Shown here piece after piece: positions 1 to 22,732 of a stretch of 22,958 bases of DNA (its first letter is position 1; each line of letters opens with the position of its first letter). Origin of the DNA: Emiliania huxleyi CCMP1516 (taxonomy: Eukaryota); the NCBI RefSeq assembly GCF_000372725.1, contig NW_005202427.1:1276459-1299416 (forward strand), in the 5' to 3' direction. The notes beneath the pieces were generated by a model. It ran no database searches, was not told where the DNA came from, and saw nothing but the letters and a program-made list of their open reading frames with translations. The position numbers were made by a program, and so were the translations under genes.

Positions 1-1509
1 GCGCTCGCCGACGAGGTGTACACGTCCGCGCGCCTCTACAACCTCTACCACCACCTCGCCGTCCTCCCGGGCAAGGCGCGCAGCCCACCACACACCGCCA
101 CGCCCACACACCGCCACGCCACCACACACCGCCACGCCCACACGCCACCACACACCGCGCTCCACCATCACACCGCACGCCACCATCGCACCACCGCTGC
201 ACCCAGCCGCCTGCACCCCGGATCCCCGCCGCCCCCCCCCCCGAGCCCGGCGCGCCTCTAACGCCCGAGATTACCCGAGATTACCCGAGATTACCCGAGC
301 CCGGCGCGCCTCTAACGCCCGGCCCTCGAGCCCGGCCCACCCGCGTCGCAGGCGCACCTCCCCTGGCGCACCTGGCCGCGCGGCTTCCCGCTCGAGTCCA
401 TCAAGGACAACGCAACCACGTCCGCCGCCTTCCGCCGGCGCGCCCGGCCCTCGCGCCACATCCAAACCCTGGCCCTGACTCTTACCCTGCCCTGGCCAGA
501 ACACCCTAGGCGCGCCTGGCCCTCGCGCCGCATCGGCGTCTTCCAGTCCCTCGCGAACCACGACCCCGACGTGGACGGAATCTACCGGCTCACCCAGGAC
601 CTGCCCCTCTCCTTCAAGCCCTCCCTCGCCGGCACCGGAACCTCGTCCGCAGCGCTCGCAGGCCGGCCCCTCCCCTCTCCGTGGAGGCCCGGCGAGGCGG
701 CGCCCGAGGCGGCGCGGCCTCCGCGCACCGGCCCCGCGCCGAGCCGGCAAGGCTCTGGCCGCTCGCTGGCCGAGCAGGGCGGGGGCGGCGGGCAGGGCGC
801 GGTGGCGGCGGCCAGCAGGGGCGGTCGGCGGCTGAGCGGCGCGGAGGGGCGCGCCGCGCCGCCTCCGCTCCACAGTGCCGCCGCCGCCGCTGGCGGCGGC
901 GGCGGCGGCGCGGCGCATGCGGCGAGGCCATCTGCAGCGCGGGCGGGCGGCGGCGCCTCCTCGCGCGCTATCACTCTGCGCGAGGGCAGCATGATGCCGT
1001 ACAACGCCCAGGCGACGCTGCACGCGCAGCGCGCCCTCTGGTCGCTCCTGCTCCCGTGCTCCGTGCACGGGCGGGTGACCGACATCTGGCGCGCCTACTT
1101 CGCGCAGCGGCTGCTCTGGGACGTCGGGCTGCGGCTCGCCTTCTCGCCGCCGTGGGTGGTCCAGTTCCGCAACGCGCACAACTACCTCGCCGACTTCAAC
1201 TCGGAGGTGCCTCTCTATCAGCAGGCGGGCGCGCTGGTCGGGGCGCTGCTCCGCTGGCAGCCGGCGGCGAGGACGCTGCCCGGCCGCTTCGAGGAGCTCT
1301 ACGTCCACATGTACGAGCTCGGCATCGTCGGCCTCTCCGACGTGCGGCTGGCCCAGGCTTGGCTCGCCGACCTCGACCGCATCGGCTACCCCTTCCCGCC
1401 GATCCTCGACCGGCCTCCGCGGGCGGTCAAGCCGGCGAGGAGCGGCGGGGTGCGAGAGAGGCATGGAGAGAGGAGGGCCGCGACGAGTGGCGCCGGCCAG
1501 GCTACGTAG
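1..1509 (+). CDS. STELLO-like (DUF288) glycosyltransferase-related protein, 5'-partial, spliced (exons ~<1-75, 352-437, 510-1509)
   Basis: Spliced translation gives WPRGFPL, QSLANHDPDVDGIYRL, VHGRVTDIWRAYFAQRLLW and QFRNAHNYLADFNSEVPLY, matching STELLO/DUF288 motifs as I recall them. GC-AG introns at 76-351 and 438-509. The low-complexity 640-960 stretch may hide another intron. Confidence 0.85.
241..321 (+). repeat. 27-nt direct repeat (241-267, 295-321) flanking about 3 copies of the 10-mer CCCGAGATTA, inside intron 1
   Basis: CCGAGCCCGGCGCGCCTCTAACGCCCG occurs twice, separated by AGATTACCCGAGATTACCCGAGATTAC. CACACCGCCAC-type repeats also fill ~85-195. Confidence 0.95.
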
Positions 1510-4313: not shown

Positions 4314-6236
4314 TTAGGCCTCGCGGCCGCGTCTCCCGCGCGCAAAGAGCAAGTTTTCGCAGTGGCCTAGAGCGTGTAGATGCGTTGTGTGAGAGACGAG
4401 TCAGTGCGCGAAAAAGGGCGCAAGAGCCTAAGGCCTCGTCGGCGGCGAAAGTAGCCAGAGCCACGTACTAGTGGCAGCAAGCCTGTAGGGGCGGGCCGGT
4501 CACTGTCAACTCGGCGAGCCGCAAGCATTCACCTTCTTCTCGCAATCTCTTGGGCACCCAGCAATGCCCCAAGCGCTCCACGTCGGAGCGTCTAGGAGGC
4601 TGCATCTCTCGGAGCTCTAAGCCGGGCATCTCGGCGGAATCTCACCCATCTGCTCGCCGCCCGAGCACCAATCGGCGGAGGCATCGTACAGCTGGTGGCC
4701 TGTTCACGCGTCGTCTTCTGTGAAGAGGCGCATTCGACGAGGGCGGAGGAGCCACACAGCCGGCAGCGACCGGAGCGGCGTAGCAGTGCAAGCAGGCGGC
4801 CGTACCCCAGGAACGTCGCATTGTCTGGCGCCCACTTGAGAGAGAGGTGGACCTACGTGCTGAATACGCCGACATGAGGGCGGGAAGACGGTATTGTGCA
4901 GCGTATTCAGAGCACCGCGTGAACACGATGAATAGGAATTACAGCGGAATACGGGTGAACACAGCGGAATACGTGTCCTCTCGGGCGCTGGTTGGGATAC
5001 AAGAGTACGTATTCCGCTTCTAGGGAGGTGGACCTCGAGGGCGAACTGGTCGACGGTGGCGAAGAAGAGCGGGTTGTGGGCCACCGTGTCGGCGTACAGC
5101 GAGTACTCGCAGCCCTCGCAATCCATCTTGAGCACTGCCTATTCACAGCTAGAGGTGTGAAGAGACGCTGTTCACAGCCTCCTCGCAGTCCATCTTGAGC
5201 ACTGCCAGTGGCGCCGCCGGCGCATCGACGCCGCCGCCGCGGCCTCCTCCCGTCACCCTCCTCCCGACAGCCTCCGTCGGCCCGACCGCTCTGCGGAGCT
5301 CAGCGCTGCCAGGCGGGCGCAAGCGGTGGGATGGGCGATCGCCTAAAAGACATGTCTCGGACATGACCTGGACGTGTCCTGGACATGCCTCGCGGTGGGA
5401 CGGGCGATCGCCCCCGCGTATCAACACCTCGAGATTGCGGGAGAAGACCGCCTCGTCCGCGAACCTACGGGAGGGGGCTGTGAGGCTCTGGGACGCTTTC
5501 GAGAGGGCTCCGAGACGGCCAACGAAGCAAGGGACATGATGTCGGTGAGTCTCTCGCAGCCGCTAGCCTCTCTCGGCTAGACCTCCTGGCTAGATGTCGT
5601 CTATATCTCGGCAAGATCACAGATCGCGACCAGATTGCAGCCCGATCACAGATCGCGGACATATTGCAGCCAGATCGCGGCTAGATCGCGGCTGGTGCAG
5701 ATCTCTGCCAGCTCTCTAAGCTCGGCGAACCTCTCAGCGGTCGCGAGCCGAGTCAGGAAGGACGGACCAACAGTCCGCCAGCCCGCACCAATCCGCGGCT
5801 CCGGCAGCAGTGCAGCGAGGCTGCAGTTCGGCCGCATGCGAGGCGAGGCGCCCGGCCCGCACATCAGGCGAGGCGTGCTCGCCGGCGCCGCCCAGGGCTT
5901 GAAGAAGACGTTCGGGCCGAGGCGCGGCGGGTGGCGCACCGTTGGATCGCACGCCACCACGCGGCATCCCGTCCGGTTGGCGAGCTCGAGCTCGAACCAG
6001 TAGTTACGCTCCACCCCGTAGCTCACAACTGTGCACGCGCCGGCCTCGTACTCTGCATGGCAGAGCACGTGGACGCCGTATGTGCTCCCGCCGTGCCCAC
6101 GGCCAACCCTCATCCGCTCGCACGACGGCAAACCAGCCTGCTTCCGGCGCAGCCGCAGGTCGATGGCCTCGCCGGTGGCGATTAGCGCTTCGAGTGCTTC
6201 CGAGTCGGTGACTGGCGCGTACGATGCCATGTACAT
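4314..6236 (-). CDS. SAM-dependent methyltransferase, Methyltransf_22/METTL24/FkbM-like; exons 6236-5731, 5464-5412, 5342-5206, 5138-5034, 4852-4771, 4699-4646, 4482-4435, 4366-4314
   Basis: Motifs CTVVSYGVERNYWFE...CRVVACDPTV, VLKMDCEGCEY, VDQFALEVH, YGRLLALLRRSGHQL and HCENLLFAR join in frame across seven GT/GC-AG introns to TAA at 4316-4314. The start codon is uncertain. Confidence 0.82.
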
Positions 6237-10020: not shown

Positions 10021-10201
10021 CGCATCCCGTAAAAAGAAAGAAAACAGACAGCCCAAGGGAGGGATGGGAGGACGGCACGCCGCCACCACACAGGGATTTT
10101 AAGAAGAGGGGTGTGGTGCGCTAGCCGTCGCATCCCGTATAAATAAATAGAGCAGTCATCTCCAGGGAGAGATGGGCGACGCATCCCGTGCCCAGTGTTG
10201 T
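10021..10201 (-). mobile_element. Two tandem short retro-tail-like inserts (10031-10128, 10139-10179) separated by three copies of CGCATCCCGT
   Basis: The 10-nt direct repeat sits at 10021, 10129 and 10180. Each insert starts (+ strand) with an A-rich microsatellite, (AAAG)n or (TAAA)n. 45 nt (10139-10183) are identical to 15113-15157. Confidence 0.75.
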
Positions 10202-10326: not shown

Positions 10327-12828
10327 ATGGCCCTCACCTGCGGCCGAGCCGCCCTCGCGCTGCTCGCCGTCTACGTGGCGATCCTCTCGCACACGCTGCT
10401 CGAGCTCTTCTACCCGTCGCCGTGCCGCGGTGCCGCCTGTCTGCAGCCGCTGCTGCGCAGCGGCGCCGCCGTCGACCTGCAGGCGCACATCGACGGGCGG
10501 CTCGTCTGGAGCGCAGCCGGTGTGAGCAGCGGCGCAGGCCTCGAGGACGTCGCGTTTGCGGTCCCGGTCCCGGCCGAGGTGCGGCTGGGCAGTCGAGAGG
10601 AGCTGCATCTCGACTTCTCCATCGCGCTCGCCGGTCAGCAGCAGCCCATCGCGCACGCCCGGGCGCTCCTCTGCGCGCGCCGCCAGCCGCGACGCCGCAG
10701 CACCGCCCGCATGCTGCTCGCCGAGCCAGCCGTCTCCTCCACGCCTGGCTCCGCCACTTCCGACTCTGCCGCCGCCGCCGTCCCCGCCGCCTTCGCTTCC
10801 AGCGAGCAGAGCGGCGTCGCCGTTTCCAGCGAGCAGAGCGCCGCCTCCGTATCCAGCGAGCAGAGCGGCATCGCCGTTTCCAGCGAGCAGAGCGGCGTCG
10901 CCGTTTCCAGCGAGCAGAGCGGCGTCGCGCCGCCCAACGAGCGGGGCGAGGTGCCGCACTACCTCTATGCGGCGGCGAGCCTCGAGCTGCGGCTGGTTGC
11001 CGACGAGACGCCGCACGCCGGGCCGGTGCTGCCGAGCGACGGGGCCCAGGTCGCGAACGGCGTGGACTGGTCTCGGCGCGTGTACGCGCCTCGGCTCTAC
11101 GTCGACGAGCTCGGCCTGCTGGGCAAGCACGCGCTGCCTCTCTCGAGCGACGTGGGCAAGGAGCCTCCTCGGCTGCGGCTGCGGCTGCTGCCCATCTCCC
11201 TCGGTCGGTACCGCGCCACGCGCCAGCTGCACACGGCGCTTGGCGCGCTGCAGGCGGCCAGCGGGATGGAGGCAGTTTGACGCGCTGCGCGAGCTGTGCC
11301 TTCCCCCCTGAGCCTTCTCTGAACCTTCTCTGAACCTTCCTGCAGGCCGAGTTCGACGAGCTACGCGAGCTGCTCTCCGAGAAGCGCCTCTACCGCTTCG
11401 CGCTGATGCAGCTGATCGGGCTGCTCCACGTCGTCTTTGACGCGCTCGCCTTCCGGAACGACGTCGGCTTCTGGAAGGGGCGGGAGGACCTGAGGGGCCT
11501 GTCCTCGCGCGGCGTCATCTTCAACGCGGGCTCCACGCTCGTCATCTTCCTCTACCTGCTCGACGGCGACGGCGTCAACTCGATCGTCCTCGCTACCTAC
11601 GCCTTCTCCACCGCCCTCGAGCTTTGGAAGCTGACCAAGGTGGTTGCGATGCGGCGGCGGGCGCGCGGCGCGGCCGGCGGCGCCGGCGGCGAGGGCGCGC
11701 GCGCCGAGGCGGCGACGGAGCGGTTCGACGAGGTTGCGACGCGGCACTTGACGTGGGGACTCGCGCCGCTGGTCGTCGGCTGGGCGCTGTACGCGCTGCT
11801 CCACTACCCGCACGCGTCGTGGCGCGCCGCTTCCCCGCCGTCCTCCCGCCAGCCCCGCCTCCGAGGGGGCGAGTCACCAACCTTGGATTCTGCACCCTCT
11901 TGTCAGGTACAGCTGGCTGCTCGGCTCGCTGGCCGACGCGATCTACCTCTTCGGCTTCATCGCGATGACGCCACAGCTCTTCATCAACTACAAGGCGCCG
12001 AGAGGAGCCGAGATGGCCCGAGATGGCCCGAGCTCTCCCAAGATCCCCAGATCTTCTTCAGCCACAAGGCGGTTCGCTGCTCAACCCCCCCGCACCCTCC
12101 AGGCCTCTGTCCCTCCCAGGGCACCCCCCTTCCCCGTGCCCCTGCCTGCGCCAGACCAGCCCCCTCGCTTCTGCCGTCGCCACGGCGCGCCGAGGAAGTA
12201 CACACGCCGTTTCGAGGCAGAGCTCCCCCGCCCCCCCTCGCGCCAGATGAAGAGCGTCGCCCACCTGCCGTGGCGCGTCCTCGCGTACAAGGCCTTCAAC
12301 ACCTTCATCGACGACGCCTTCGCGCTGATGGTCGCGATGCCGACCGCCCACCGCGTCGCCTGCTTGCGGGACGACCTCGTCTTCCTCGTCCTCCTCTACC
12401 AGCGCCGCCTCTACCCCGTGGACCGGAAGCGCGCCAATGAGTTTGGCATCGCGTACGAGCGGGACGAGGCGGACGTCGCTCCCGCGCGAGGGGAGGGCAG
12501 CGCGGGAGATGGGGCCGAGGAGGGGCCTGCTAGAGGGGTGGAAGCGGAGGGCCTGCTAGAGGGGTGGAAGCGGAGGGCGAGGTACCCACCCGCCTCCTCG
12601 ACCTCCCCACGGAGCTCCTCGTGCGTGTCGTCTCTCGCTGCGACCCCGCCGACATCGCTCGCGTTGCGGCCGTCTCGCACATCTTCCACGCCTCGCTTGC
12701 GAAGGAGGGCATCCGCTTGTGGGCGCAAGAGCGCGGCTTCGAGCTGGCGGCGCAGCCAGAGGGCGAGGGCTGTGCCGTGCGGTGGCTGTGTCTCGCTGCC
12801 TTGCTGCGCGAGTCCAACCCGCCGGTGA
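10327..12828 (+). CDS. CLPTM1: CLPTM1-family membrane protein; exons 10327-11271, 11346-11821, 11907-11994, 12247-(12828); aberrant 3' end
   Basis: Motifs FDALAFRNDVGFWK, WYSWLLGSLADAIYLFGFIAMTPQLFINYK|MKSVAHLPWRVLAYKAFNTFIDD and YQRRLYPVDRKRANEFG. Three GC-AG introns keep the frame. Homology ends at ~12460 and the frame runs on to 12828, overlapping the next ORF. Confidence 0.9.
10798..10929 (+). repeat. Coding minisatellite, ~5 x 27 nt (SSEQSGVAV)
   Basis: TCCAGCGAGCAGAGC units begin at 10798, 10825, 10852, 10879 and 10906. Confidence 0.95.
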
Positions 12829-13946
12829 GGGCGTCGACAGGCCGCTCCCACAGCGTCTTCATCGACGGCGAGGGGCGCCTCTCGTCGTGCGGCAGTGAGT
12901 GGAGCTACACAGGCCTGCCTCGCCGTCCAGGATTGCTCGGGCACGGCGAGGGGGTGACACGGCTCGACACGCCGACGCGCCTCTCGTCGACGCTGGGCGG
13001 CGAGCGCGCCGTGAGCGTGTCGGCTGGAGTCGGCCACACCCTTGCCCTCACCGCTGATGGCGCTGTCTGGAGCTGGGGCGATGGAAACTACGGCCAGCTG
13101 GGCCACGGCGACCGGCAGTACCAGCTGCTGCCCAAGAAGGTCGAGGCCTTTGCTGGTCAGCACGTCGTCGCCGTGTCGGCTGGAGATAGCCACAGCCTCG
13201 CCATCACCGCTGACGGCGCTGTCTGGAGCTGGTGCCAGGGAGCCTGGGGCCAGCTGGGCCACGGCGACAAGCAGCCCCAGTGGCTGCCGAAGAAGATCGA
13301 GGCCTTTGCTGGCCAGCGCGTCGTCGCTGCGTCGGCTGGAGCGCAGCACAGCCTCGCCCTCACCGCCGACGGAGCCGTCTGGAGCTGGGGCTGGGGAGGC
13401 GATGGCGTGCTGGGCCACGGCGACCGGGAGGACCAGCTGCTGCCAAAAAGGGTCGAGGCCTTTGCGGGTCGGCGCGTGGTCGCTGTGTCGGCTGCAGACC
13501 GCCACAGCCTCGCCCTCGCCGCCGACGGAGCCGTCTGGAGCTGGGGCGAGGGAGGGTCGAAGGGAGGGGAAGGCTGGCTGGGCCACGGCGGCGGGCAGCG
13601 CCAGCTGCTGCCGAAGAAGGTCGAGGCTTTGGCTGAACAGCGTGTCCTCGCAGTGTCGGCTGGAGCGGCGCACAGCCTCGCCCTCACCGCCGACAGCGCC
13701 GTCTGGAGCTGGGGCTGGGGAGCTTGTGGCCAGCTGGGCCACGGCGATCAGCAGAGCCGGCTGCTGCCGAAGAAGGTCGAGGCCTTTGCTGACCAGAATG
13801 TCATCGCTGTGTCGGCTGGAGTTCGCCACAGCCTCGCCCTCACCGGCGATGGGGCCGTCTTTACTTGGGGCAAGGGCGACACCGGCTGCCTAGGACACGG
13901 AGCTGACCTGTCGAAGCAGCTGCTGCCCAAGAAGGTCGAGCGATAG
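12564..13946 (+). CDS. F-box-like + RCC1-repeat (7-blade, UVR8/HERC-like) protein, intronless, no ATG in frame
   Basis: LLDLPTELLVRVVSRC (F-box-like) is followed by seven repeats of the type SAGxxHSLALTADGAVWSWGxGxxGQLGHGD...LLPKKVEAF. An in-frame TAG lies at 12531 and the ORF is annotated from GTG. Confidence 0.88.
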   Translation: MEAEGEVPTRLLDLPTELLVRVVSRCDPADIARVAAVSHIFHASLAKEGIRLWAQERGFELAAQPEGEGCAVRWLCLAALLRESNPPVRASTGRSHSVFIDGEGRLSSCGSEWSYTGLPRRPGLLGHGEGVTRLDTPTRLSSTLGGERAVSVSAGVGHTLALTADGAVWSWGDGNYGQLGHGDRQYQLLPKKVEAFAGQHVVAVSAGDSHSLAITADGAVWSWCQGAWGQLGHGDKQPQWLPKKIEAFAGQRVVAASAGAQHSLALTADGAVWSWGWGGDGVLGHGDREDQLLPKRVEAFAGRRVVAVSAADRHSLALAADGAVWSWGEGGSKGGEGWLGHGGGQRQLLPKKVEALAEQRVLAVSAGAAHSLALTADSAVWSWGWGACGQLGHGDQQSRLLPKKVEAFADQNVIAVSAGVRHSLALTGDGAVFTWGKGDTGCLGHGADLSKQLLPKKVER

Positions 13947-15055: not shown

Positions 15056-15109
15056 GCGGCTCCCGTGGTGTACCTGTGTTAGTGCCAGTGCGCGCCAGTC
15101 CCGTGCCCA

Positions 15110-15165
15110 TAAATAAATAAATAGAGCAGTCATCTCCAGGGAGAGATGGGCGACGCACACGAACA
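15110..15165 (-). mobile_element. 56-nt retro-tail-like insert with (TTTA)n tail and 14-nt TSD
   Basis: CAGTCCCGTGCCCA occurs at 15096-15109 and 15166-15179. The insert shares 45 identical nt with 10139-10183. Confidence 0.8.
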
Positions 15166-16152
15166 CAGTCCCGTGCCCAGTGTTGTTGGAGCCGTAGTCC
15201 TTTTCACCACCCAAGACAGCTTGGAGAGCTCCCGGTAAGGCTACATTTCGTAACGATCGTCGCTATTGGCCATCTGCCTCCTGCAGCCTCTGTTGGGGCG
15301 GAATGCGCGGGGTTTTCGGCGCAATGCCTCCGGCTAGTACACGGTACTGCTCTGCCGCAAACTCTCCTGCGCTCGCGTGACGTGTGGGGCACACGCACTG
15401 CGCTCGAAAGTCGCAATTTGGCAATAGGCGCTCGAGCCGGCGCGCAGTGGAGGGGGCGCCGCGCAGGGGGATCGGGGGGGTGCGAGAGGGGGCGTGGGTC
15501 GGGCGCGCACCGGCCGGCTCCGGGAGCGGCCGTCACGTCGAAGAGGGGACCTGGTGCTGCTCGAATGACGACGCATGCCGCTCTGCTGCGCCGCCGATAG
15601 CCCCTCTTCCGAGCCGGCGCGTGGCGGCGAGCCGCGGCCAGTATCGCTGGTGCGGTGGAGGCGGCAGCTTGCATCGGCCGGCAGCGGGTGCGGCCATCAC
15701 GTCGATGAGGGGGGGTTGTCGGCGACTCGTGTGGCTCGAGGCCTACGCTGACCGCCCAAGCCCTACTGCCGATCCAGCGCCTGGCGTTTGGGGCGAGCCG
15801 CGGTCGTCGTCGCTGATGGTATATGGCGGCGGCGGCGGCGGCTCGCCCTTCCCTCCGGCCGCAATTCCGATCCCGCCGCGCGGGAGTTGGCGCGCCCACC
15901 GCGGCACGGCGTGGCTGCGCATACTGCATACACCTTACGCCCTTTCTCCTCAACGGCTATCCGTGCTTGCTGTGCCCCTGCGTGGTGTGTTTCAAGTTCT
16001 TACAACCCAAGGTGATAGAGGGCAAAAAGATCGATTGCGCTCTTGCCGATCCGCACCTACCTAGGCTCTTGGGTGGCGCGCCCCAGCTCTTCACAGCGAA
16101 CCTGGTTTTTGGGCTTGCGCTTCTCGCGCCGAGCTCGACGAGAGTGACGAGA

Positions 16153-18524: not shown

Positions 18525-19111
18525 CGCGACTCTGCCCGCTCGCTCGACCCTTTTGCCGCGAGAGGGCGCCGGCCGCGTGTAAGAGGTGGCTGGCGCCCTG
18601 AGGCGGCATTTGGTGGCTGGGGAGTGCGGAGAACGCTACTGGCGGCGTGACAGGGCCTCTCTCGATTGCGTGTGCCGCCCATCGGCACGCGGGTGCGCAG
18701 ACATCGCGACTCTGCCGCTCGCTCGACCCTTTTGCCGCGAGAGGGCGCCGGCCGCGTGTAAGAGGTGGCTGGCGCCCTGAGGCGGCAATTGGTGGCGTGG
18801 GGAGTGCGGAGAACGCTACTGGCGGCGCGACAGGGCCTCTCTCCGCTGCGTGCGCCGCCCATCGGCACGCGGGTGCGCAGACATCGCGACTCTGCCCGCT
18901 CGCTCGACTCTTTTGCCGCGAGAGGGCGCCGGCCGCGTGTAAGAGGTGGCTGGCGGCCTGAGGCGGCATTTGGTGGCGTGGGGAGTGCGGAACGCTACTG
19001 GCGGCGCGACAGGGCCTCTCTCCGCTGCGTGCGCCGCCCATCGGCACGCGGGTGCGCAGACATCGCGACTCTGCCCGCTCGCTCGACTCTTTTGCCGCGA
19101 GAGGGCGCCGG
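18525..19111. repeat. Tandem array, ~180-bp unit, ~3.3 copies
   Basis: CGCGACTCTGCC(C)GCTCGCTCGAC starts at 18525, 18705, 18885 and 19064, with high identity between units. Confidence 0.95.
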
Positions 19112-20242
19112 ACGCGAGCACGTGGAGCACTCGGAGGAGACGGAGTACTCCGAAGTTTGGGGCGCACCCACACACCCACACACCCACGTGGTAATCTTTT
19201 ACAGTAGGCACAAGTTGGCACAGTACAATGGACTCTGAAGTTTGGGGCACACAACGCACACGCACAACGCACCCACACACCCAGGGGTCTCTACAATGCA
19301 ACCTCCCAAGCAAGCTCCCAGACATCAAGTGGGAAAGGGGTTCTGCCAGCGAGCACCATGCAGTGGTCTGCGGCTGGGCCCTCATTCAACAGTCAGCGTG
19401 GCGCGTCGCCAGAGGGGAGCTTTTCTTCACCCCCTCGCATGCAGCAGGACAGTACGGGGCTCCCACGCGCCACGGTTGGGCCCAAGGCCAAGCGCAGGCC
19501 AGCAAGCGCGAGCAACAAAAACAGCACGCTCTATCTATACGGTTTATAATTATCTTACTGTGCCCACACGCGGCCTCAGAGAGAGGGCCAGTCCCCGAAC
19601 CATGACCACCGACAACATCCATCCATCCACACCATCGTGCCACGACTTGCACGAAGCACTTACCCAATAAGTGCAAGGAAAGTCTGGCCCAGCCACCCAT
19701 AAGTACTGTATCCTGAAACCGCTGGCTGGGCCTCACGTGACCTCCTCCGCCCCGTCAGAGCTGAGCAGCTGAGTAGCAGGGTCACACCAAAAAAAGTCAC
19801 AGGCAGAGTCGCTGCAGCAAGGCCTTCTGCTCGCCGCCCACCGTGCCCGCCGAGTCCGACGACCGCACGGTGCTCTCCGCGCCGGCTCACCGTGCTCCAC
19901 GCCGTGCGTGATCGGCAGGTACGACGGTGGTAAGACTCACACCGACCACCATGGGCGTCGTGCTCAGCAAGGTCTTCGAAAACCTCTCCTCTTGCCGCGA
20001 GGCCGCCGCTCCGGCGGCAGAGGCTGACGTCCCGATGGAGCAAGCGCTGAGCGATGCCGAGCTTTCATCAGATCACGAGCACGAGGAGCAGCCGCTGCTC
20101 CATGAGTAGCGGCTCCGCGACGACAGTCAACCAGACTCGTGCGCTCGTGAAATGGAAGACAAAGCAGCGGCAGGTCAAGACGCAGGGGCAGCTCGCGGCT
20201 GAAATCGGGTGGTCGCCTCCGCAGCTCTCCTTCTTCCTCAAT

Positions 20243-20915
20243 GGGAAGGCATTTGGCGCCCTGCGTGCCTGCGTCTTCGCCTCCACATCCATTTCCAACA
20301 AAGCCAAAAAGGCGGTCTACGAGGCGATCGTTCTCTCGACCGTCCTCTACGGCTGCGAGACGTGGAGTTTGACCGAGGAGCTGACCGGCGGCTGCGCTGC
20401 ATGCATGCCCATCACTTACGAGCAATGTGCCGGGTGTCGCGCAGCCAGGCGTGGGAGCATCACATCTCGACCCAAGAGCTGGGACAGCGGCTGGGGTTGG
20501 ACTCCATCGAGTTCTACATCGCTCGCCGGCAGCTCCGGTGGCTTGGACACGTCAGCCGTATGCCTTACGAGACGAGGCTCCCTCGCCGCTTGCTCTCGGC
20601 GTGGGTGCCCCATCGCCGCCCGATAGGCTCGCCGTCCATGACGTACGGCCGCTCCATCTTCAAGGCGCTCGAGATGTTCCGCATCGACAAGACGCGCTGG
20701 CCCGAGCTCGCCGCGAACCGCAGCGCATGGCGCGAGACCTTGCGGACGGGCGTTGCCCCGCCTGCCTTTTGGCCGCCGGCTCCACCGCCGCAGGCCAAGC
20801 CCCTGTCGCGCACAAAGCTCCCCCGGAGCAGCGCGCAGCAGACCCAAGCCAATGAATGAGTCGCTCCGCCGGGAGCGTCTCTCATGACAACATACACATA
20901 CATACATTCATTCAT
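20243..20915 (+). mobile_element. 5'-truncated RTE-clade LINE, 3' end, frameshifted
   Basis: KAFGAL...[22 protein letters not shown], a frameshift at ~20385, then [13 protein letters not shown]...RLPRRLL...RPIGSP...WPELAANRSAWR, the typical post-RT RTE C-terminus. A (CATA/CATT)n tail lies at 20891-20915. Confidence 0.9.
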
Positions 20916-21252
20916 GACTCTCAGTCTACAGTCAGCGCTTTGATCCCAATCACGACACATGTGTGACTCGCCTAGTGTGGAGACGCCGTGTACCGTGGGG
21001 CCTTGTTGTCCTAGCACGGGAGTACCCGTGTGGACCGGAGGTAACAGCAGCAGCAGCAACCTGCGGAGGCACCCTCGACGCTGGCGAGGTACTTCAAGCC
21101 TGCTGTGAAAACAGCTGACGCAGTCTCGCCGCGGCTCGCCCCAGCATCTCGGGTTGACTCGGCCAGACTAAAACCCCGAGAGGCGTGGGAGTACCTCGCC
21201 AGCCTCGAAGTCAACGAGGCCCAACCCTGTGGCTCCTACTGCCTACAACTCG

Positions 21253-22399
21253 ATGTTGCTGCTGTCGCTGCCTCTGTTTCCCTCCGGTTTCGTGCTCCTC
21301 AGCGGTGGGGCTCCTCGCTCCTCGCTGGCTCCGCCGCGCACCGGCGCGGCTCTCAGCATGCGCGACGACCAGGCGACCCGGGACGACGCGCCGGGCCAGT
21401 CCTTCGACAACGACATGAGCGGCTGGAAGCCGCCGGGAGGCGGCGGCGGCGGCGGCCACGGCCTGGGTGGCGACACCTCGAAGTTTACCACGACCGACTC
21501 GCCCGACTTTCTCCCCGAGGAAGGGAGCGAGGAGGCGAAGCTCGCGTCGGGCATCAGCTACACCGACGGGATGATGGGCAGCCAAGCGGACCCGAACCGG
21601 AAAAAGTCGACGGGTCCCGAGCTGGCTGGCGCGCTCGACTCGGACCCGGACATCTACGTGCCGGAGGTGGAGGAGGTGGTCGCCGACTCGAGCCTCTTTG
21701 TGCTGCCAGAGGCGTCTTGGAAGCTGTCCAAGATGGAGGCGCGCCTCCTCACCTGACCTCTTCTCGCACCCCTCCCTGCGTGCGCGCCCGTCGCCGGCCC
21801 ACTCGCCGTCCCCGAGCCGCGCAGGTCTAACCCTAACCCTTACCCTAACCCTAACCCTAACCCTAACCCCGAGCCGCGCAGGTCTCTAACCCTAACCCTA
21901 ACCCTAACCCTAACCCTACCCTAACCCGAGCCGCGCAGGTCTCGCAGACGGACGAGGACCTCGAGTTCAGCTGCTCGGCGACAGAGGGAGGCGCGATGAA
22001 GGCGCGCGGAGGCGCACTGCCTCGGCCACGCTGCTCGGAGAGGGCGAGGTCGCTCCGCCGCGTCGCAGGTTGACGTCAAGCCCGTCTGCATGACCTTCGA
22101 GGACTACTACTGCGGCTTCACCTCCGACTCGCACCCCGCCTTCTCCGTCTCGCCCGACGCCGGAAAGATGGAGCGGCGGAACGGCCCGCCCACGACCGTG
22201 ACCGTGACCTGCAACCCGAAGGCGAGCCGCGACGCCCGCGGCCCGGCCGCTGCCCCGTACTCCCGCCCCCGCGACCCGCCCAACCGACCCGCCGCGACCG
22301 CAGGGCGCCTCCGGCGCGCTGGTCGGCTACCTCTGCTTCATCCTGCCCGAGGAGAGGGACTTTTCAACCTTTTACAAAGTCACGTGCAACTCGCGGTAG
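21253..22399 (+). CDS. Probable plastid-targeted protein of unknown function (exons 21253-21738, 21939-22001, 22069-22221, 22304-22399)
   Basis: Signal/transit-like N-terminus (MLLLSLPLFPSGFVL...AALSM). Three phase-0 GC-AG introns give a continuous frame through VDVKPVCMTFEDYYCGFT...GYLCFILPEERDFSTFYKVTCNSR*. Confidence 0.75.
21811..21942 (+). repeat. Interstitial telomeric (CCCTAA)n tracts between three copies of the splice-acceptor region CCCGAGCCGCGCAG|GTCT
   Basis: The 18-nt copies start at 21811, 21868 and 21925 (period 57) and are separated by ~6-7 CCCTAA units each. Confidence 0.97.
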
Positions 22400-22732
22400 A
22401 GGCCGCTCCGCTCGACGGGCTCGTGCTAGGTCCCGGCCCCCGGAAGACAATGCTCATGCATGCATGGCCCTCGTAGGGGCTGCTATCTCTGCTCTTCCGC
22501 TCACGCGCAGAGAGCTCTGAGAGCCAGAGTACGTAGCTCTTTTTTGCCGTGTGATAGACCTTTTAAGTTTTATTTGAAGCATTTTAGAGCACACGAAGCA
22601 GGAGAAGCCCGCTGGGGCGTGGGGCACGGCTCAGCTTTGTACGGTTCACTGACTGTAAAAAAACCTCGGCGCACGTGTGAACGTCACATCGACGCCGCCT
22701 GCCCGCTGCCGTTCGCGTGCTGCGGCGCGGCG

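What the first reader, a model, noticed from the sequence alone, without database searches (positions are those of the whole stretch)
21811..21942. Triplicated splice acceptor interleaved with telomeric repeats: nested 57-nt GT-AG units
Seen: CCCGAGCCGCGCAG|GTCT occurs three times, separated by near-perfect (CCCTAA)n. Each AG is followed directly by GT, so 21825-21881 and 21882-21938 are each a potential GT...AG intron with zero-length exons between them. Established: CTAAC matches the spliceosomal branch-point consensus, and it occurs in every repeat when the C-rich telomeric strand is the sense strand. Inference: telomerase-type insertions are pre-adapted to be spliced in this orientation, and this young example may be recursively spliced or use alternative in-frame acceptors. 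The STELLO example has the same orientation.
Basis: partly seen in the sequence, partly recalled or inferred. Interest (0 to 1): 0.8.

Follow-up and report, generated by a model that had tools for sequence, protein, structure and literature searches.

The report
Telomere scars shift a splice site
In a gene of the marine alga Emiliania huxleyi, the end of an intron occurs three times with short telomere repeats between the copies, likely scars of DNA repair, and the mature RNA joins the exons at the last copy, so the protein is unchanged.

Summary
The triplication is real. Three copies of an 18-nt acceptor block are separated by (CCCTAA)n, and the same structure appears in another haplotype (L001) and in three more DNA runs, so assembly error is very unlikely. 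It sits at the 3' end of a GC-AG intron of a conserved haptophyte gene. RNA joins exon 1 (21738) to the distal copy (21939): one contig and a 29-read consensus. The 57/57 symmetry is incidental: L001 has 57/40, which puts the middle acceptor out of frame, and the proximal acceptor gives an immediate stop. The inner 'donors' (GTCTAA, GTCTCT) fit this window's donors poorly. Best reading: two telomere-repeat fill-ins at staggered breaks, each with a 19-bp target duplication, lengthened an inferred 86-nt intron to 200 nt and moved its acceptor. Recursive splicing is unsupported but not excluded, because reads through the repeat could not be seen. Strand bias could not be tested (two cases). The STELLO insert (438-509) is the better candidate for a newborn intron, but its splicing is unshown. 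The scan has noted similar telomere-plus-duplication inserts before on other marine DNA.

The parts
21253..21738 (+). Exon 1 (coding part) of a conserved 265-aa protein without a Pfam family; the N-terminus looks like a signal/transit peptide (by eye)
   Evidence: RNA depth
21739..21938 (+). Intron 1, 200 nt, GC...AG; 86 nt if the 114 inserted bases are removed (inferred)
   Evidence: RNA contig X11 runs 21738 to 21939; 29 X18 reads leave exon 1 into exon 2 sequence
21810..21828 (+). Copy 1 of the acceptor block (AG ends 21824), likely the original acceptor position; its use gives a stop at the second codon
21829..21866 (+). Telomeric tract 1, 38 nt, (CCCTAA)n with one CCCTTA variant that L001 lacks
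21867..21886 (+). Copy 2 of the acceptor block (AG ends 21881); its use adds 19 codons in this allele and shifts the frame in L001
   Evidence: also present in contigs of X3, X8, X9
21887..21924 (+). Telomeric tract 2, 38 nt here and 17 nt shorter in L001; its last CTAAC (21921) lies just upstream of the used AG
21925..21943 (+). Copy 3 of the acceptor block; its AG (ends 21938) borders exon 2 in the mature RNA
21939..22001 (+). Exon 2
22002..22068 (+). Intron 2, 67 nt, GC...AG
   Evidence: Joint in 79 X18 reads and the X11 contig
22069..22221 (+). Exon 3
22222..22303 (+). Intron 3, 82 nt, GC...AG
   Evidence: Joint in 65 X18 reads and the X11 contig
22304..22399 (+). Exon 4 to the stop codon
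438..509 (+). Second, older case in the STELLO-family gene: a 72-nt GC...AG insert made of one copy of a 25-bp direct repeat (23 of 25 identical to 510-534) plus a degenerate CCCTAA tract; candidate new intron, splicing not shown

Best explanation
The three acceptor copies are likely the scars of two telomere-repeat fill-ins at staggered DNA breaks across an intron's 3' end, and the mature RNA joins exon 1 to the last copy, so the protein is unchanged. Shown: the triplication, its presence in other haplotypes, the distal junction and the normal protein. Inferred: a cut left 3' overhangs of about 19 nt spanning the acceptor and the first exon bases. The bottom-strand end (...GGG) was extended in register with (TTAGGG)n, by telomerase or another templated polymerase, then rejoined through a 1-2 nt overlap, which duplicated the acceptor. 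A second such event, offset by one base, made the third copy. Also inferred: the 200-nt intron is mostly removed in one step from the GC donor, probably using a CTAAC of tract 2 as branch point. Any use of the proximal acceptor (stop codon) or the middle one is minor or degraded. The structure is likely neutral.
For: Both G-strand runs start in register after GGG and end at GGGTTAG (bottom strand printed). PMC2246262 gives at most 1.56% as the chance level for 3 in-register bases (passages); the two runs here share one site and are not independent. The two 19-bp repeats are offset by one base, which two events explain with no further change. The junction signatures are the same in the window and L001, and the GTCT versus GTCTCT difference is seen in X3, X8 and X9, while tract length and variants differ. 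RNA: the X11 contig joins 21738 to 21939; 29 X18 reads give the exon 2 consensus with agreement 0.94, and there is no RNA depth at 21740-21840. All 36 family proteins in which both anchor motifs were found (of 125 held) have the same 32-residue spacing across the junction, and none of 216 fetched proteins holds a telomere-type peptide. The 9 donors examined (3 RNA-shown, 6 predicted by eye) are all GC with a purine at +3, and 7 have G at +5; the inner GT donors have C at +3 and no G at +5. The normal junction itself reads GAG|GTCTCG, and no joint skipping exon 2 was listed.
Against: No empty allele was found, so the ancestral state is reconstructed, not seen. The mature junction is identical whether the intron leaves in one step or three. 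The laying tool cut reads at the repeat, and reads resembling human telomeric DNA may be dropped, so other acceptors are under-detected. Agreement of 0.94 allows about 2 differing reads of 29; the one-sided 95% upper bound is 10% for 0 of 29 and 20% for 2 of 29. One insertion plus a tandem duplication and two small slips would give the same sequence. The enzyme is not identified.
Confidence: 0.62

Rival explanations
1. One telomeric insertion with a target duplication was followed by tandem duplication of the whole unit (slippage or unequal crossover between the repeats); the two units then drifted by a CT slip and a C-run slip. Splicing is as in the best explanation.
For: Both units are 57 nt in the window. 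Tracts are unstable between haplotypes. A second break at almost the same base needs a hot spot.
Against: It needs two extra changes, and both must land on bases already present in the flanks (CCCC upstream, GTCTC downstream). The equal length is a sum of compensating differences and is absent in L001.
Confidence: 0.2
2. The units are removed recursively to a meaningful extent: exon 1 is joined at 21825, the regenerated GT is spliced to 21881 and then to 21938, with CTAAC branch points.
For: AG|GT occurs at each copy, and a CTAAC lies about 15 nt before AG 21881 and AG 21938. The unit size is near the other introns of the gene (67 and 82 nt). E. huxleyi uses GT donors in 35-40% of junctions (PMC4028052, passages). 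PolyA RNA would hide intermediates.
Against: The donors GTCTAA and GTCTCT lack +3 purine and +5 G. No intermediate was seen among 29 reads. Unit 2 is only 40 nt in L001. In human introns under 1 kb, conventional lariats dominate even where recursive sites exist (PMC10156609, passages).
Confidence: 0.08
3. The middle acceptor (21882) is a regulated alternative that adds 19 amino acids.
For: It is in frame and stop-free in this allele, with a good branch-point match upstream.
Against: It shifts the frame in L001. No protein with the insert among the 15 listed of 21 cluster members or the 216 fetched proteins. It is not the read consensus.
Confidence: 0.05
4. The triplication is an assembly artefact that merged two alleles.
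For: Short-read contigs break in the tracts; no long read was available.
Against: L001, a different haplotype (5 and 6 mismatches plus indels in the flanks), holds all three copies in one contig. X3, X8 and X9 each hold a middle copy preceded by telomeric sequence.
Confidence: 0.03

Closest known systems
Short interstitial telomeric sequences inserted at repaired double-strand breaks in rodents and primates (PMC2246262; passages read)
   Same: [quoted passage not shown]
   Different: Here the duplication covers a splice acceptor, it appears twice at one site, the host is a haptophyte, and no empty orthologous site was found.
Staggered-then-staggered break repair in new Daphnia introns (PMC4202315, category F; passages read)
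   Same: Direct repeats from repeated staggered breaks lengthen an intron.
   Different: The Daphnia exon-intron repeats are 4-12 bp and the word 'telomer' has no hit in that text. Here the repeats are 19 bp and the filler is telomeric.
Intron gain by duplication of an AG|GT site (Rogers model; PMC3265369, abstract and opening text read)
   Same: Duplicating AG|GT yields a GT...AG segment whose removal leaves the protein unchanged.
   Different: Here the AG is an existing acceptor, so no new exon-exon junction arises and the old GC donor can remove everything. The STELLO insert is closer to this model (GC...AG, in coding sequence).
Recursive (ratchet) splice sites (PMC10156609; passages read)
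   Same: AG|GT inside an intron, with zero-length exons.
   Different: No lariat or intermediate evidence, weak regenerated donors, a 200-nt intron, and spacing that is not conserved.
Pervasive interstitial TTAGGG tracts in the coccolithophore Calcidiscus leptoporus (PMC13518057; passages read)
   Same: Internal telomeric tracts are common in a related genome.
   Different: The passages seen say nothing on target duplications, orientation or splicing; the supplement (Fig. S5) was not read.

Membership tests
Short interstitial telomeric sequence inserted at a break | The tract equals the organism's telomere repeat | tested here: met
   Near-perfect CCCTAA; TTAGGG is reported as the G. huxleyi and haptophyte telomere
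Short interstitial telomeric sequence inserted at a break | [quoted passage not shown] | tested here: met
   GGG precedes TTAGGG in both runs on the bottom strand; this rests on the reconstructed empty site
Short interstitial telomeric sequence inserted at a break | An empty orthologous site in a relative | tested here: inconclusive
   L001, X3, X8 and X9 all carry the insert; X1 and X2 break inside it; no relative's genomic copy was found
Short interstitial telomeric sequence inserted at a break | Made by telomerase (co-inserted telomerase RNA sequence, or genetic dependence) | not testable with these tools
   No telomerase RNA or genome of this organism was available
Recursive splice site | AG|GT inside an intron | tested here: met
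Recursive splice site | The regenerated 5' site fits the organism's donor consensus | tested here: not met
   +3 is C and +5 is not G, against 9 of 9 (+3 purine) and 7 of 9 (+5 G) window donors, 6 of them predicted and all GC-type
Recursive splice site | Intermediate junctions or recursive lariats | tested here: inconclusive
Alternative in-frame acceptors | The frame is kept across alleles | tested here: not met
   Unit 2 is 40 nt in L001; acceptor 1 gives a stop in both alleles
Intron gain by AG|GT duplication | A new exon-exon junction is created in coding sequence | tested here: not met
   At the focal site the RNA shows one junction, from 21738 to 21939
Intron gain by duplication (STELLO insert 438-509) | The insert is spliced out | not tested
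   It is absent from 14 homologous proteins printed and has GC...AG ends, but it is also in frame without a stop, and no RNA was laid on it

The most novel reading that the evidence does not exclude
Telomere-repeat fill-in at staggered breaks is a recurrent, orientation-filtered route of intron birth and acceptor renewal in coccolithophores. C-rich-sense inserts survive in genes because the duplication supplies the splice dinucleotides and CTAAC supplies the branch point. The 72-nt STELLO insert is then a spliced intron born this way, and the triplicated acceptor is a site renewed twice.
Probability: 0.27. Interest if true: 0.7.

Novelty: new variant of a known kind. Interest (0 to 1): 0.35.

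Why it matters
The source of filler DNA and splice signals in new introns is a long-standing question. This locus shows a clean, readable case in which telomere-repeat filler and a target duplication rebuilt a 3' splice site without harming the gene. With the STELLO insert it defines a genome-wide test in a species that has long-read assemblies and Iso-Seq data: orientation bias, duplication length and splicing of such inserts. Taken alone it is probably a neutral scar. In practice such inserts can mislead gene prediction and break short-read assemblies.

Tried and rejected
No whole genome is held, so the genome-wide strand-bias test was impossible. Proxy scans were uninformative. Viral contigs with a telomeric pattern gave 21 loci; I printed 12 (GC 0.34-0.58, no flanking direct repeat evident by eye) and left out 9 from long contigs. 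Genome contigs gave 2 loci, GC 0.49 and 0.56, neither resembling this case. CAGGY followed by C-rich versus G-rich repeats gave 1 versus 8 loci, 7 of the 8 from three long contigs; none was read and they are not used as evidence. The search for related loci in viral contigs found no relative. Pfam has no family for the protein at E 0.1. The first lay could not show reads or joints through the repeat. The E. huxleyi genome paper (Read et al. 2013) is not held. PMC11347835, PMC13685798, PMC6410037 and 10.64898/2026.07.09.736142 (passages only) held nothing on telomeric inserts forming splice sites. Rejected: 57 nt as a functional period (L001), and a hidden exon in the units (stop codons, no RNA support).

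Full report
Observation. The 18-mer CCCGAGCCGCGCAGGTCT lies at 21811, 21868 and 21925, and the two intervening segments (21825-21881, 21882-21938) are each 57 nt and GT...AG. All 10 matches of a 12-nt telomeric pattern in the window fall here, on the + strand, against 0.05 expected. The maximal direct repeats are two 19-mers offset by one base, each enclosing a 38-nt tract.

Gene and organism. The site lies in the first intron of a four-exon gene (21253-21738, 21939-22001, 22069-22221, 22304-22399). Its 265-aa product matches, by eye, P0048, which NCBI names an Emiliania huxleyi CCMP1516 hypothetical protein. The family has 102 hits at E <= 1e-10, some named from haptophytes and diatoms, and no Pfam match. 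All three introns start with GC, the commonest donor in this species (56-65%; PMC4028052, passages). Removing the 114 inserted bases leaves an 86-nt intron, close to its 67- and 82-nt neighbours.

Is it real? A single scan of metagenome contigs for the distal acceptor gave one locus, L001. It is a different haplotype (1 mismatch in 461 from exon 2 to the stop, 0 in 572 from the ATG to the first AG, several in the flanks) and holds all three copies with the same junctions, but with units of 57 and 40 nt. All three non-RNA runs laid (X3, X8, X9; three studies; kind guessed or not on record) have one contig with copy 1 and another with a middle copy preceded by telomeric sequence. X1 and X2 break inside the repeat. 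Any one of these runs could be the window's own source, but not all of them. No empty allele was seen, so the insert is shared across the sampled haplotypes. It is young only relative to the STELLO insert.

Splicing. RNA contig X11 runs from 21738 directly to 21939. In raw polyA reads (X18, about 3% of the run read), 29 reads leave exon 1 with the exon 2 consensus (agreement 0.94), there is no depth at 21740-21840, and no joint is listed. The limits matter. The tool cut reads at the repeat, telomere-like reads may be filtered, and polyA RNA hides intermediates and decay targets. The bound on other acceptors is about 10-20%. The proximal acceptor gives a stop at codon 2 in both alleles; the middle one adds 19 residues here but shifts the frame in L001. 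Of 125 family proteins held, 36 had both anchor motifs, and all 36 have the same spacing across the junction; 0 of 216 fetched proteins contain PN, LT, GL or RV runs.

Recursive splicing. The mature junction cannot tell one step from three. Sequence argues against the three-step path. All 9 donors examined (3 shown by RNA, 6 predicted by eye, all GC-type) have a purine at +3 and 7 have G at +5, whereas GTCTAA and GTCTCT have neither. The normal junction itself regenerates GAG|GTCTCG, and no exon-2-skipping joint was listed. In human introns under 1 kb, conventional lariats dominate even where recursive sites exist (PMC10156609, passages). That CTAAC resembles the branch-point consensus is textbook knowledge (recalled), but 6 of the 9 introns examined have no CTRAY, so this organism does not need it.

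Origin. On the bottom strand both runs begin in register after GGG and end at GGGTTAG, overlapping the next copy by 1-2 bases. This is the geometry of a staggered break with 3' overhangs whose G-ending strand was extended with TTAGGG and rejoined (inference). That human telomerase tends to stop at GGTTAG is recalled, and the haptophyte template register is unknown. Mammalian interstitial telomeric sequences show the same in-register seed, and a minority have duplications (PMC2246262, passages). Repeated staggered breaks are described for new Daphnia introns (PMC4202315, passages). Two events offset by one base explain the sequence with no extra change; one event plus tandem duplication needs two slips. 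The enzyme is open. The STELLO first intron has a 28-bp direct repeat around a non-telomeric (CCCGAGATTA)n filler, and that repeat also begins CCCGAGCC. General templated repair, or target-primed reverse transcription by a LINE enzyme, would give the same geometry.

The STELLO case. Bases 438-509 are a 72-nt GC...AG segment: one copy of a 25-bp repeat (23 of 25 identical) plus a degenerate C-rich tract that scores above all 5000 shuffles against (CCCTAA)n. In a sliding scan it is the second-best C-rich peak (score 36), while the best G-rich peak scores 24. Removing it makes the protein colinear with the 14 non-Emiliania-model homologues printed. It is also in frame without stops. The CCMP1516 model drops it using an upstream donor, which is a prediction, and I had no RNA lay left for it. 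It is the better candidate for intron birth. Two same-orientation cases are no test of strand bias.

Literature and earlier notes. Ten full-text searches listed no paper describing telomeric inserts that duplicate or create splice sites in haptophytes. The library lacks most subscription papers, including the E. huxleyi genome paper; from memory only, that paper reported intron-enriched, strand-biased 10-11-bp tandem repeats. Pervasive internal TTAGGG tracts are reported for Calcidiscus (PMC13518057, passages; supplement not read and may bear on location and orientation). TTAGGG is the telomere of G. huxleyi and of haptophytes (10.1101/2024.05.26.595999 and PMC3622300, passages). Duplication of AG|GT can create a working intron (PMC3265369, abstract and opening text). 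Earlier notes of this scan describe telomere-plus-duplication inserts as candidate or spliced introns in other marine microbes and in a fungus. I did not check them, and they are leads, not support.

Verdict. A real and well-formed repair scar that rebuilt an acceptor, most likely twice, and is spliced out. Recursive or alternative use is unsupported but not excluded. It is a new variant of a known kind, interest 0.35, with the wider intron-birth reading at about 0.27.

Noticed in passing
window 240-321: In the predicted first STELLO intron, a perfect 28-bp direct repeat encloses (CCCGAGATTA)-type 10-mer repeats. This is the same repeat-plus-filler geometry with non-telomeric filler; like the focal repeat it begins CCCGAGCC, and each copy contains CTAAC.
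   Followed up: partly
window 438-534: Older degenerate telomeric insert with a 25-bp duplication in STELLO coding sequence; GC...AG, 72 nt, in frame, absent from homologues.
   Followed up: partly
window 20300-20930: Frameshifted remnant resembling the C-terminal end of an RTE-type non-LTR retrotransposon ORF (resemblance recalled, not tested) with an (ACAT)n/(ATTC)n tail, about 300 bp upstream of the focal gene.
   Followed up: no
window 5122-5206: An 18-bp direct repeat (TCCATCTTGAGCACTGCC) encloses a 49-nt spacer; another possible target-duplication insertion.
   Followed up: no
window 18525-19116: 179-bp tandem repeat, 3.3 copies, 96% matches.
   Followed up: no
window 13017-13860: 156-bp coding repeat, 5.3 copies, resembling RCC1-type repeats (recalled).
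   Followed up: no
window 10140-10200 and 15096-15180: Two copies of a motif with (ATAA)n and ATAGAGCAGTCATCTCCAGGGAGAGATGGGCGACGCA, possibly ends of a dispersed element.
   Followed up: no
window 21972, 22164, 22429: Roughly 50:50 variants in the pooled X18 reads (alleles or strains), and a minor 3' UTR joint from 22399 to 22475 in 3 reads.
   Followed up: no
window 10797-10928: 27-bp coding tandem repeat, 4.9 copies, in a multi-exon membrane-protein gene (CLPTM1-like by recall).
   Followed up: no
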